A program made the position numbers. From the NCBI RefSeq assembly GCF_003790525.1, contig NZ_CP033635.1: DNA of 64,000 nucleotides, one strand, 5' to 3'. Origin of the DNA: Escherichia coli (GTDB taxonomy: Bacteria; Pseudomonadota; Gammaproteobacteria; Enterobacterales; Enterobacteriaceae). Below, in pieces: positions 36,001-39,000 of the stretch (the stretch's first letter is position 1; every line of letters begins with the position of its first letter).

Positions 36001-39000
36001 GCGGTCCTGGATTAAAAGGACCGCTCAAAGAGAAATCGAAAGGGGAGGTAAAAGTGATCAATAAATTACTGTTAGCTTACCTGATAGGTCTGGTTGTGAC
36101 ATCGACCTTAATATTTATCTTCTCGGAAGAAAAAGTAACATATCGGTTGTTTGCTGCAGCAATTACAGGGTTGACCTGGCCGCTTAGCCTCATTCCATCC
36201 ATCATAAGTCTCATGATTCGTAAATCCGACTAGCAAGAAAATTATATGATCGATTAAGAAAAATAGAATCGAACAAGAGAATAAAATATATGCGGGGAGT
36301 AACAAAACACTCGCAGTGCGTTAATGAAGAACTAACAAATATGATTTGTATTGAAAATAGTTATCAAACAAGTGTTATAAGAAATACGGGGTATGTTTAA
36401 GTAAAACATATCAACAGTTGCAATTCTGTATATGGACAGGATGACTTACTACTGTAAGTAGTTGATAGCTATTCGCTCATAACAAAATCATTATTTTATA
36501 AATAGGAATCATCACTTTTTAATCATGTTTTTATAGCAAGTTTATGGAGAATGAGAATATGGAATAAGGAGATGAAACATGATTGAAGAAGGGCTGTTAC
36601 TTCCAATGAATGTTTTGCTTCAAGGACAGAAGTTAACCCTACTGGACCCTGAAATGTGGTTCTTACGGGGAAATGAAAACAAGGATGTAACCCTTGTTAT
36701 TACGATCGGTAATAACCATCAAAAATTAATGGTAGTGGAAGATATATTACTGCTCATTGACCGAAGCCAAATTGAGGTAACTGCAGGGAAAGTAATTTAT
36801 CATCCACTTCGCATTGATATCCTGAGTAAATTATTAGCTTTTATAGATGAATCAACGGGGAGTGTGGAAAGGGAGCACCATGAGTTGTTTGCTGATGCCT
36901 TGCCCTTTGCATCAGAAGTTGTGCTATTCAGTAAAGTTGCAAGTGAAGCCTGGTTTTTAGCCACTTATCTGAGCAGCGATAATATTAATGAAATTCTGTT
37001 TCAGCATCTAAGAAAAACAGAATGCTATAAACTGGTTCGCTATTTATTATCGCAATCGCTCATACAGACTTCACTCTATGATCTTGGTGAGCTTTACGGC
37101 GTATCGTATTCACATTTTCGCCGTTTATGTAGTTATGCATTGGGTGGTAAAGTTAAAACGGAATTATGTGGCTGGAGAGTTGCCAGAGCCGTGTTGGAAA
37201 TCATTGAAGGAAACAGTGATATGACAACTATTGCGCATAAATATGGCTACTCATCCTCATCACACTTTTCAGCCGAAGTAAAAAGCCGGTTAGGAAAAAC
37301 ACCGAGAGAACTATGTAAAAAGTTATGAAAATAAAATTACGTATTACTATTATATTAATTTCAGCCTTATGCATTTTTAATGGATTATTGACTCCTGGTG
37401 CATATGCCGCAACAGCGAATGGATACGTAGCAAATAAAGAAAATCTACGTAGTTTTTTTGAAACGGTTTCATCATATGCGGGTAAGCCTACAATAGTAAG
37501 TAAGCTTGCCATGAAGAAACAGATCAGCGGAAATTTTGATTTAACCGAACCCTATGCCTTGATTGAACGCCTGTCGGCGCAGATGGGACTTATTTGGTAC
37601 GATGATGGCAAAGCTATTTATATCTATGACTCATCAGAGATGCGTAATGCGCTGATTAATCTGAGAAAGGTATCGACGAATGAATTTAATAATTTCTTAA
37701 AAAAATCGGGTCTGTATAACTCTCGTTATGAAATTAAAGGGGGCGGCAATGGTACTTTCTATGTTTCAGGGCCACCGGTGTATGTTGACCTGGTCGTTAA
37801 TGCTGCAAAATTGATGGAGCAAAACAGCGATGGCATTGAGATCGGTCGCAATAAAGTAGGAATAATTCATCTGGTCAACACATTCGTTAATGACCGGACT
37901 TATGAGTTACGTGGCGAAAAGATAGTTATTCCGGGCATGGCAAAAGTACTATCGACATTGTTAAATAATAACATTAAACAAAGCACAGGAGTGAACGTAC
38001 TTTCCGAAATTTCAAGTCGTCAACAACTAAAAAACGTATCACGTATGCCTCCTTTTCCTGGTGCTGAAGAAGATGATGACCTACAAGTAGAGAAAATAAT
38101 ATCGACAGCTGGAGCGCCTGAGACTGACAATATACAAATTATTGCATATCCTGATACCAACAGTTTACTTGTTAAAGGAACAGTATCTCAGGTTGATTTT
38201 ATCGAGAAGTTAGTAGCTACGCTCGATATTCCAAAGCGTCACATTGAATTATCTTTATGGATAATAGATATTGATAAGACTGATCTAGAACAGTTAGGAG
38301 CTGACTGGTCGGGCACGATAAAAATTGGATCCAGCTTAAGTGCATCATTTAATAATTCAGGTTCAATTAGTACCCTGGATGGGACACAGTTTATTGCAAC
38401 AATACAGGCACTTGCGCAAAAAAGAAGAGCCGCCGTTGTTGCTCGTCCAGTCGTTTTAACACAAGAGAATATTCCTGCTATATTTGATAATAACCGCACT
38501 TTCTATACTAAATTAGTCGGCGAACGTACTGCGGAATTGGATGAAGTAACCTATGGTACGATGATTAGCGTGCTACCACGATTTGCTGCGCGAAATCAAA
38601 TTGAATTACTCCTGAATATTGAAGATGGCAATGAAATCAATTCCGACAAAACCAATGTTGATGATCTGCCTCAGGTTGGTAGAACGCTTATAAGTACTAT
38701 TGCACGCGTACCCCAAGGGAAAAGTCTTTTGATTGGGGGATATACACGAGATACGAATACCTATGAAAGTCGCAAGATCCCAATATTAGGCAGTATTCCA
38801 TTTATTGGTAAATTATTTGGATATGAAGGAACAAATGCGAATAACATCGTTCGTGTCTTTCTTATTGAGCCAAGAGAGATCGATGAGCGCATGATGAATA
38901 ATGCGAATGAGGCTGCGGTTGACGCCAGAGCAATAACACAGCAAATGGCAAAAAATAAAGAAATCAACGATGAATTACTGCAGAAATGGATAAAAACTTA

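What the first reader, a model, noticed from the sequence alone, without database searches (positions are those of the whole stretch)
36054..36233. Unannotated small membrane-protein ORF with a strong Shine-Dalgarno site upstream of eivF
A 59-codon GTG-initiated ORF, missed by the ATG-based track, is preceded by AGGGGAGG at ideal spacing and encodes two hydrophobic segments. It sits between the GH15-like gene and the AT-rich eivF promoter region.
Basis: seen in the sequence. Interest (0 to 1): 0.25.

Follow-up and report, generated by a model that had tools for sequence, protein, structure and literature searches.

The report
Known GhoT/OrtT-family small membrane toxin gene
The 59-codon ORF is a real gene, but it is already annotated: it is ECs3735, a GhoT/OrtT-family small inner-membrane "toxin" homologue at the edge of the E. 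coli ETT2 secretion island, so the finding is ordinary apart from a conserved pairing with the neighbouring GH15 gene.

Summary
There is a GTG-initiated 59-codon ORF at 36054..36233 (+). AGGGGAGG lies 5 nt upstream, and the protein has two hydrophobic helices.

The ORF is not unannotated. RefSeq/PGAP calls exactly these coordinates "GhoT/OrtT family toxin". It matches Pfam PF10753 (45.4 bits, cut-off 22.1). It is ECs3735 ("ydcX homologue, inner membrane protein") in published ETT2 gene tables.

It is a third, divergent paralogue of GhoT (39% identity) and OrtT (25%). It occurs in 1325 of 5426 complete E. coli genomes.

The reading frame is under purifying selection, within E. coli (pN/pS 0.05–0.33 in the 15 of 21 allele pairs that have a synonymous difference) and against an E. 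albertii orthologue (pN 0.24, pS 0.79). The GTG start and GGAGG are present in all eight sequences examined.

No GhoS antitoxin gene or known RNA family lies nearby. The best reading is therefore an orphan, OrtT-like membrane-damaging peptide. Toxicity is inferred, not shown.

One unexpected point: in Escherichia and Yersinia relatives the gene sits directly downstream of a secreted GH15-like gene even where no T3SS genes are present. Its conserved partner is therefore the GH15 gene, not eivF.

Interest is low.

The parts
36054..36233 (+). CDS of a 59-aa GhoT/OrtT-family small inner-membrane protein (equivalent to ECs3735 of O157:H7 Sakai; WP_016234872.1 in strain CM2). GTG start, TAG stop.
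   Evidence: ORF listed. Pfam PF10753: E 9.7e-12, 45.4 bits against a cut-off of 22.1. The identical CDS is annotated in RefSeq. 39% identity to K-12 GhoT and 25% to OrtT. Purifying selection on this frame. Helical-hairpin model with pLDDT 90.5.
36041..36048 (+). Shine-Dalgarno sequence AGGGGAGG, with the GGAGG core ending 5 nt before the GTG.
   Evidence: Read directly. GGAGG and the GTG are present in all 8 E. coli sequences compared, although one allele group has GTAAGGGAGG in place of GAAAGGGGAGG. Unpaired in the RNA fold.
36001..36024 (+). Stable hairpin (GCGGTCCT - 8-nt loop - AGGACCGC) in the 66-nt gap between the GH15 stop and the small gene. No U-tract follows it. Its role is not established: it could be a partial terminator or 3'-end stabiliser for the GH15 mRNA, or a 5'-UTR element of the small gene.
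   Evidence: Fold of 35975..36075: -23.5 kcal/mol, z = -3.36, 0 of 200 shuffles as stable. E. albertii keeps a hairpin at the same place with one compensatory pair change (C-G to T-A) and a longer stem. The Yersinia-type loci carry unrelated G+C-rich hairpins at the same position.
34376..35987 (+). GH15-like gene (pkgA / ECs3736-37 region). It has a signal-peptide-like N-terminus. In this window it is frameshifted into two ORFs (34334..35008 and 34923..35987). It is the conserved upstream neighbour of the small gene.
   Evidence: ORFs. Weak Pfam GH15 hit here; the intact homologues score above threshold. RefSeq marks it 'frameshifted' in O157:H7 and intact in other strains. A GH15 gene followed by the small gene is also found in E. 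albertii and Yersinia enterocolitica loci.
36234..36578 (+). AT-rich (29% GC) spacer between the small gene and eivF. It is the presumed eivF promoter and leader. Only its last ~110 nt are conserved with E. albertii.
   Evidence: Composition. Alignment with L011. No Rfam family matches here. The 36-aa ORF at 36290..36400 falls in the part that is not conserved.

Best explanation
The ORF is ECs3735, a real protein-coding gene at the glyU-proximal edge of the ETT2 island. It encodes a third, divergent E. coli paralogue of the GhoT/OrtT family of small inner-membrane proteins. Shown here: translation signals (GGAGG, 5 nt, GTG) that are present in every allele compared; a 59-aa product predicted to form a helical hairpin (TM1 about residues 2-23, polar loop SEEK, second helix kinked at the family's invariant T-W-P motif); purifying selection on the frame; and the absence of a GhoS antitoxin gene or any other recognisable partner apart from the GH15 gene upstream. 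Inferred by homology to GhoT and OrtT (PMC4344625): when produced in quantity the peptide inserts into the inner membrane and damages it, lowering proton-motive force and ATP and slowing growth. It would therefore act as an orphan, OrtT-like toxin rather than as half of a type V GhoST pair. It is presumably kept at low level by its GTG start, the upstream hairpin and its AT-rich, horizontally acquired setting. It is not a T3SS component. It travels with the neighbouring secreted GH15-like gene and is dispensable, because the common 8.7-kb ETT2 deletion removes it.
For: Family membership: Pfam PF10753, 45.4 bits against a cut-off of 22.1. BLASTP to K-12 GhoT: 39% over 46 aa, E 3e-12. To OrtT: 25%, E 4e-6. 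All family-invariant or near-invariant residues are present: Y9, R31, G39, T41, W42, P43, S45. Annotation: 'GhoT/OrtT family toxin' at identical coordinates in RefSeq, and ECs3735 'ydcX, inner membrane protein' in PMC3977695. Start site: the GTG and GGAGG are in all 8 sequences, while the upstream ATG used by many 78-aa gene calls is in frame only in the alleles that lack one G. Selection: the two deep E. coli lineages differ by 6-7 synonymous and 1-4 non-synonymous changes, and pN/pS is 0.05-0.33 in the 15 of 21 allele pairs that have at least one synonymous difference. Against the E. albertii orthologue, pN is 0.24 and pS 0.79, with length and frame kept. Structure: two hydrophobic segments and an AF2 model with pLDDT 90.5. 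Orphan status: tblastn with GhoS against the whole window gives nothing better than E 1.2, there is no Rfam match near the gene, and the upstream gene is GH15. Toxic mechanism of the relatives: OrtT and GhoT damage the membrane and reduce ATP, and OrtT has no antitoxin (PMC4344625).
Against: No experiment on this protein was found in the searchable literature, so toxicity is inference only. Identity to the characterised toxins is low. Phe38, whose F38R change abolishes GhoT toxicity and reduces OrtT toxicity, is Ala here and Ala, Val or Ile among E. coli alleles, although that position varies across the whole family. The C-terminus is a charged tail (MIRKSD) instead of the hydrophobic LLFSLF. 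The protein evolves about four times faster than its neighbours (dN 0.29 against 0.07 for EivF and EivG). It is absent from three quarters of complete E. coli genomes. Its conserved adjacency to a GH15 gene hints at a role tied to that enzyme rather than a free-standing toxin.
Confidence: 0.6

Rival explanations
1. The small protein is a functional partner of the upstream secreted GH15-like protein. The two form a gene module in which the membrane peptide helps localise, release or regulate the enzyme (holin-like or anchor-like). It would not be a toxin in the TA sense.
For: In the clade closest to this protein (shared TWPLSLIP motif), 5 of the 7 locus types examined have a ~540-aa GH15 gene ending 66-102 nt upstream of the small gene. 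The downstream flank differs each time: eivF in E. coli and E. albertii, DUF6710, LysR, and an IS-rich region in Yersinia enterocolitica. A sixth locus, L020, has the GH15 gene 857 nt downstream. The GH15 proteins (57-62% identity) and the small proteins (~44%) have diverged together. The GH15 proteins have signal-peptide-like N-termini.
Against: A hairpin separates the two genes in every locus, so co-transcription is not assured. GH15 homologues occur without the small gene: L025/L026, and Commensalibacter L027/L028. Most family members (GhoT, OrtT, the Serratia genes) have no GH15 neighbour. In this window, in O157:H7 and in strain CM2 the GH15 gene is frameshifted or IS-disrupted while the small gene stays intact. 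The sample is small, and the adjacency may be shared ancestry only.
Confidence: 0.2
2. The ORF is a leftover with no present function. It would be carried along in a decaying island, with its conservation reflecting recent common ancestry.
For: ETT2 is widely degraded. 1975 of 3280 genomes that carry the region have lost the gene through one deletion. The neighbouring GH15 gene is often a pseudogene. The protein evolves fast. Scattered truncated or frameshifted variants exist in databases.
Against: Substitutions between the deep E. coli lineages fall mainly at synonymous third positions. Frame, length, start signals and motif residues survive in E. albertii, where synonymous sites are saturated (pS 0.79), and at ~44% identity in Yersinia. 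All 8 RefSeq copies read are intact.
Confidence: 0.1
3. It is the toxin of a two-part system whose antitoxin was not recognised. The antitoxin could be the chromosomal GhoS acting in trans on its mRNA (type V) or an antisense or nearby small RNA (type I-like).
For: ghoS-ghoT is present in 97% of complete E. coli genomes, so GhoS is available in trans. A sigma-70-like site on the minus strand at 36367..36338 could drive an antisense transcript across the ORF.
Against: GhoS does not neutralise even the much closer paralogue OrtT (PMC4344625). The number of promoter-like sites in the region is no higher than in shuffles, 6 against 4.5 ± 2.0. The downstream spacer is not conserved in E. albertii. 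There is no Rfam hit. The gene is lost by deletion in most lineages, so it shows no addiction behaviour.
Confidence: 0.07
4. It is a component or regulator of the ETT2 type III secretion system, for example co-regulated with eivF.
For: It lies 345 nt upstream of eivF, inside the island as usually drawn. One relative, L020, sits next to an InvH homologue.
Against: Relatives in Yersinia keep the GH15 gene but have no T3SS genes nearby. Some E. coli strains keep the GH15 gene and the small gene but have lost eivF through eivA. No T3SS family matches the protein.
Confidence: 0.03

Closest known systems
OrtT (YdcX), orphan toxin of E. coli K-12
   Same: Same Pfam family (PF10753). Similar size: 57 aa against 59. 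Both have two hydrophobic helices, the invariant TWP motif and conserved Y, R, G and S positions. Neither has an adjacent antitoxin gene. Both mRNAs contain MqsR-type GCU sites, 2 in ortT and 3 here. The published ETT2 table already names ydcX as its homologue.
   Different: Only 25% identity. Different locus: a horizontally acquired, AT-rich island against the core chromosome. Present in 24% of complete genomes against 99.8%. Charged C-terminal tail. GhoT/OrtT Phe38 is replaced by Ala, Val or Ile. GTG start. A GH15 gene lies upstream. No experimental data exist.
GhoT, toxin of the type V GhoS/GhoT system
   Same: Closest characterised sequence: 39% identity over 46 aa, E 3e-12. Same predicted membrane hairpin.
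   Different: ghoT is the second gene of a ghoS-ghoT operon. Here no GhoS homologue exists in 64 kb and the upstream gene is GH15. ghoT has no GCU sites and this gene has three.
ECs3735 of E. coli O157:H7 Sakai, and the RefSeq 'GhoT/OrtT family toxin' proteins WP_001301699.1 and WP_016234872.1
   Same: It is the same gene. The nucleotide sequence is identical in strain CM2 and 95.5% identical in O157:H7, at the same position between the GH15 gene and eivF.
   Different: Nothing of substance. The window allele has Ala36 where O157:H7 has Ile.

Membership tests
GhoT/OrtT family (Pfam PF10753, formerly DUF2566) | Significant match to the family profile, above the curated threshold | tested here: met
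   45.4 bits against a gathering score of 22.1, E 9.7e-12, residues 4-46 on profile positions 3-46 of 55. The NCBIfam library has no model that reaches threshold, so PGAP's name evidently rests on other evidence.
GhoT/OrtT family (Pfam PF10753, formerly DUF2566) | A protein of about 57 aa with two hydrophobic (transmembrane) helices joined by a short polar loop | tested here: met
   59 aa. The hydropathy profile parallels those of GhoT and OrtT. The AF2 model has helices at 2-23 and at 28-40/46-58. Membrane insertion itself was not tested.
GhoT/OrtT family (Pfam PF10753, formerly DUF2566) | Conserved G-x-T-W-P-x-S motif in the second helix, and the conserved Tyr and Arg | tested here: met
   T41, W42 and P43 are invariant, and Y9, R31, G39 and S45 are at least 90% conserved in a 19-sequence family alignment. 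All are present here.
GhoT/OrtT family (Pfam PF10753, formerly DUF2566) | Phe38, the residue whose F38R change abolishes GhoT toxicity and reduces OrtT toxicity | tested here: not met
   It aligns with Ala36, which is Val or Ile in other E. coli alleles. The position is variable across the family, so it is a property of GhoT and OrtT rather than a defining feature of the family. Source for F38R: PMC4344625.
GhoT/OrtT family (Pfam PF10753, formerly DUF2566) | Toxic on overproduction through membrane damage and ATP loss | not testable with these tools
   No experimental report on ECs3735 was found.
Type V toxin-antitoxin system (GhoS/GhoT) | A GhoS endoribonuclease antitoxin gene immediately upstream in the same operon | tested here: not met
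   tblastn of K-12 GhoS against the whole window gives a best E of 1.2. The upstream gene is GH15.
Type V toxin-antitoxin system (GhoS/GhoT) | Toxin mRNA cleaved by GhoS | not testable with these tools
   Trans action of the chromosomal GhoS cannot be excluded by computation. GhoS does not protect against OrtT (PMC4344625).
Orphan toxin (OrtT-like, no cognate antitoxin) | No protein or RNA antitoxin encoded next to the toxin | tested here: inconclusive
   No GhoS gene, no conserved small ORF in the flanks and no Rfam family were found. An unrecognised small RNA, or an antitoxin-like role for the GH15 neighbour, cannot be ruled out.
ETT2 / SPI-1-type T3SS apparatus or regulator genes | Homology to inv/spa/prg/org genes, or conserved linkage to them | tested here: not met
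   The only Pfam family is PF10753. Relatives occur with a GH15 gene but without T3SS genes.

The most novel reading that the evidence does not exclude
The GhoT/OrtT-like peptide and the secreted GH15-like protein upstream form a conserved two-gene module that moves between islands in Escherichia and Yersinia. In this reading the peptide is a dedicated membrane partner of the glycoside hydrolase, for example a holin-like release factor or a regulator of it, rather than a toxin-antitoxin remnant. That would give one branch of the GhoT/OrtT 'toxin' family a physiological job.
Probability: 0.12. Interest if true: 0.45.

Novelty: already known. Interest (0 to 1): 0.14.

Why it matters
It matters little for discovery. 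The gene has been in genome annotations since the O157:H7 Sakai genome as ECs3735, and RefSeq now names it a GhoT/OrtT family toxin. The practical points are modest. First, ATG-only gene tracks miss it, and many automated calls wrongly extend it to 78 aa from an upstream ATG. Second, ETT2-intact E. coli carry three GhoT/OrtT paralogues, not two, which matters for anyone studying persistence or membrane-toxin redundancy in EHEC, EAEC or APEC strains. Third, its conserved neighbour is the GH15 gene, so the two form a candidate functional pair that nobody appears to have examined.

Tried and rejected
- **NCBIfam and PADLOC scans.** The NCBIfam scan of the protein gave only sub-threshold noise. 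The PADLOC scans of the protein and of the GH15 neighbour gave nothing.
- **Rfam.** A permissive scan of 33000..38000 found only tRNA-Gly and two chance hits, none at the ORF.
- **GhoS search.** tblastn of GhoS against the whole window found nothing.
- **Promoter and terminator scan.** Promoter-like sites are no more frequent than in shuffles. The 'terminator' inside the ORF (36092..36107) is a weak 5-bp stem and was disregarded.
- **Species-representative genomes.** The pattern G[LF]TWP[LV]SL[IF] found one locus only, an E. coli-like contig in a 'Collinsella' MAG that is presumably contamination.
- **JGI metagenome contigs.** A degenerate DNA pattern for TWPLSLIPA[LF][LF]F found no match.
- **Plasmid collection.** Protein searches with the small protein and with GH15 hit only chromosome-sized records filed as plasmids, so the pair is not plasmid-borne.
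- **Single-sequence phmmer.** Against 1.84 billion representatives it gave only 12 hits, so the family is small and short.
- **Literature.** Searches for ECs3735, Z4199, pkgA and ydcX+T3SS returned only the gene table in PMC3977695.
- **The 78-aa form.** Rejected because its ATG is out of frame in this window and in O157:H7.
- **L021 fragment.** The upstream fragment in L021 was checked as a possible GH15 C-terminus and is not one.
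Full report
**1. Observation**

A GTG at 36054 opens a 59-codon frame that ends at TAG, 36231..36233. 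AGGGGAGG occupies 36041..36048, so GGAGG ends 5 nt before the start. It is unpaired in the predicted RNA fold.

The product is MINKLLLAYLIGLVVTSTLIFIFSEEKVTYRLFAAAITGLTWPLSLIPSIISLMIRKSD. It has two hydrophobic stretches around a polar loop.

The ORF lies 66 nt after the stop of a GH15-like gene. It lies 345 nt, at 29% GC, before the AraC-type regulator gene eivF.

An ORF of this size alone would mean little, since 138 ORFs of 50-80 aa occur in the six frames of the window. Only two of them have GGAGG at -15..-4. They are this one and the 79-aa ORF at 50937..51176 in the T3SS gene block, which I read as the needle-protein (PrgI/EprI-like) gene from its sequence but did not test.

**2. Identity**

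The protein matches Pfam PF10753 (Toxin_GhoT_OrtT) at 45.4 bits against a gathering score of 22.1.

Megablast against 5426 complete E. coli genomes finds the 180 nt in 1325 of them. Every sampled row is annotated 'GhoT/OrtT family toxin'. The eight records I opened show an intact CDS at exactly these coordinates. They include WP_016234872.1 in strain CM2 (100% identical) and WP_001301699.1 in O157:H7.

The ETT2 review PMC3977695 lists the gene as ECs3735: 180 bp, homologue ydcX, 'inner membrane protein', between eivF (ECs3734) and pkgA (ECs3736). The gene is therefore known and annotated. It was missed only by an ATG-restricted track.

**3. Relation to the characterised paralogues**

I took GhoT, GhoS and OrtT from K-12 MG1655.

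- The ETT2 protein is 39% identical to GhoT over 46 residues (E 3e-12).
- It is 25% identical to OrtT (E 4e-6).
- GhoT and OrtT are 63% identical to each other.

In a 19-sequence family alignment T-W-P is invariant, and Y9, R31, G39 and S45 are at least 90% conserved. All of these are present here.

The differences are as follows.

- **C-terminus.** It is a charged tail (MIRKSD) rather than LLFSLF.
- **Phe38 position.** In GhoT and OrtT this is the residue whose F38R change abolishes or reduces toxicity (PMC4344625). Here it is Ala, or Val or Ile in other alleles. That position varies across the whole family.
- **GCU sites.** ghoT has none, ortT has two and this gene has three, which agrees with the statement in PMC4344625.

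ghoT occurs in 5283 of the 5426 genomes and ortT in 5415. ETT2-intact strains therefore carry a third paralogue.

**4. Is it a functional gene?**

*Start site.* All eight E. coli sequences keep the GTG and GGAGG. Many database gene calls are 78 aa and begin at an upstream ATG. That ATG is in frame only in alleles with GTAAGGGAGG. This window, O157:H7 and others have GAAAGGGGAGG, which puts the ATG out of frame. The 59-aa form also matches the family's length.

*Selection within E. coli.* Seven alleles differ at 12 columns, of which 7 are synonymous third positions and 5 are non-synonymous. The two deep lineages differ by 6-7 synonymous and 1-4 non-synonymous changes. pN/pS is 0.05-0.33 in the 15 of 21 allele pairs that have at least one synonymous difference.

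*Selection between species.* The exhaustive phmmer search found a 59-aa relative of about 59% identity. It lies in an ETT2-like island of Escherichia albertii with the same order: GH15, small gene, eivF-like, secretin. Against it the small gene has pN 0.24 and pS 0.79. EivF has pN 0.064, EivG 0.070 and GH15 0.123. The gene evolves fast but is clearly constrained. Its frame, length and motifs survive saturation of the synonymous sites.

*Structure.* An AlphaFold2 model built on the family alignment is confident (pLDDT 90.5). It shows helix 2-23, a short loop, then helices 28-40 and 46-58 kinked at the TWP motif.

**5. Partners and regulation**

No GhoS homologue exists anywhere in the 64 kb (best tblastn E 1.2). 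No Rfam family matches near the gene. The spacer downstream is not conserved in E. albertii except for the last ~110 nt before eivF.

The gap between GH15 and the small gene holds a stable hairpin at 36001..36024 (z = -3.36). It has no U-tract. E. albertii keeps a hairpin there with a compensatory pair change. I cannot tell whether the small gene is read through from GH15 or has its own promoter. The promoter-like sites found are no more frequent than in shuffled sequence.

**6. An unexpected linkage**

The nearest non-Escherichia relatives are 44-45% identical and share the TWPLSLIP motif. They are from Yersinia enterocolitica and from unassigned assemblies. Their contexts are as follows.

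| Locus | Source | Arrangement |
|---|---|---|
| L012 | Logan assembly | GH15, 102-nt gap, small gene, DUF6710 |
| L013 | Y. enterocolitica | GH15, 98-nt gap, small gene, LysR |
| L015 | Y. enterocolitica | GH15 and small gene inside an IS-rich region |
| L020 | unassigned | InvH (divergent), small gene, IS fragment, GH15 857 nt downstream |
| L021 | unassigned | no GH15 seen on a 2.3-kb contig |

The GH15 proteins are 57-62% identical to the Escherichia ones. Each gap has its own G+C-rich hairpin.

The conserved neighbour of this gene is therefore the GH15 gene, not eivF or the T3SS. Some E. coli strains keep GH15 and the small gene while having lost eivF through eivA.

The linkage is not universal.

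- A 57%-identical GH15 gene (L025/L026) is followed by a hairpin and an IS66 element with no small gene.
- Commensalibacter GH15 genes are followed by an EamA transporter.
- Serratia, K-12 and other family members have no GH15 neighbour.

With so few independent loci, shared descent of a two-gene block is as good an explanation as function. I record a functional pairing as the rival and as the novel case, at about 0.12-0.2.

**7. Mechanism**

*Shown:* a conserved, selectively constrained, SD-preceded GTG ORF encoding a PF10753 helical-hairpin peptide with no adjacent GhoS.

*Inferred from GhoT and OrtT (PMC4344625):* insertion into the inner membrane, and at high dose membrane damage with loss of PMF and ATP, followed by growth arrest. 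That would make it an orphan toxin like OrtT.

I put about 0.9 on 'a real GhoT/OrtT-family membrane-protein gene'. I put about 0.55-0.6 on 'acts as a membrane-damaging orphan toxin'.

The gene is dispensable. 1975 of the 3280 genomes that carry the GH15 3' end have lost it through one deletion. Mapped on this window, that deletion removes 36001 to about 44730, with a 9-nt overlap at the junction.

**8. Verdict**

The feature is already known and annotated, though experimentally uncharacterised. Interest is low (0.14). The only item that might repay work is the GH15 pairing.

Noticed in passing
window 36001..~44730 (left junction at 36000/36001): The common ETT2 deletion starts exactly at the first base of the hairpin after the GH15 stop. 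It ends inside the eivJ-like gene. Strain M3 matches the window at 35200..36000 and again from 44728, with a 9-nt overlap (microhomology) at the junction. 1975 of the 3280 genomes that have the GH15 3' end show this truncation. It removes the small gene and eivF through eivI.
   Followed up: partly
window 36001..36024; L011 2059..2082; L012/L013/L015 GH15-small gene gaps: A G+C-rich hairpin follows the GH15 stop codon in every GH15-small gene locus. E. coli and E. albertii differ by a compensatory C-G to T-A pair. The Yersinia hairpins are unrelated in sequence and are followed by T-rich DNA. In L012 a TTGAGG-16 nt-TATACT promoter-like site overlaps the 3' arm of the hairpin.
   Followed up: partly
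window 34334..35987: The GH15-like gene is split into two overlapping ORFs here (34334..35008 and 34923..35987), so there is a frameshift within 34923..35008. RefSeq marks it 'frameshifted' in O157:H7. It is intact (1611 nt) in several other strains. In strain CM2, whose small-gene region is 100% identical to the window, it is interrupted by an IS3-family element.
   Followed up: partly
window 35996..36053: An upstream ATG at 35996 gives 78-aa gene calls in many assemblies, including E. coli 042 ('putative membrane protein'). It is in frame only in alleles with GTAAGGGAGG. This window has an extra G (GAAAGGGGAGG), which puts it out of frame.
   Followed up: yes
window 36054..36233 compared with its flanks: Between this window and O157:H7 the small ORF is the most diverged segment: 5.0%, against 0.9% for eivF, 1.9% for GH15, 2.8% for eivG and 0% for the 66-nt gap. 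Most of the changes are synonymous. This may be a recombination patch, but the numbers are small (9 differences).
   Followed up: no
window 34069..34139 and the GC step there: tRNA-Gly (glyU; Rfam 71.6 bits) marks the island boundary. GC falls from 50.6% (1..33000) to 36.8% (34200..64000). The LysM/M23 lipoprotein gene actS (ygeR) lies just before it, at 33214..33990.
   Followed up: no
L023 30..209 (E. coli assembly GCA_015118695.1): A further 59-aa GhoT/OrtT-family gene (P0119) sits in a lambdoid prophage-like region next to an antiterminator-Q-like gene, YbcO, a Fic protein and a hok/gef toxin gene. The family therefore also occurs on E. coli prophages.
   Followed up: no
L020 2537..2845 (-) and 3168..3341 (+): In one unassigned metagenome contig the small gene is divergently adjacent to an InvH (SPI-1 secretin pilotin) homologue. 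The GH15 gene there lies downstream, after an IS3-like fragment. This is a different arrangement of the same genes.
   Followed up: partly
L014 (contig JAIJJM010000090.1): The only hit among 100,044 species-representative genomes is a 97%-identical copy on a 7.8-kb contig of a MAG labelled Collinsella sp. It is almost certainly E. coli contamination of the bin.
   Followed up: no
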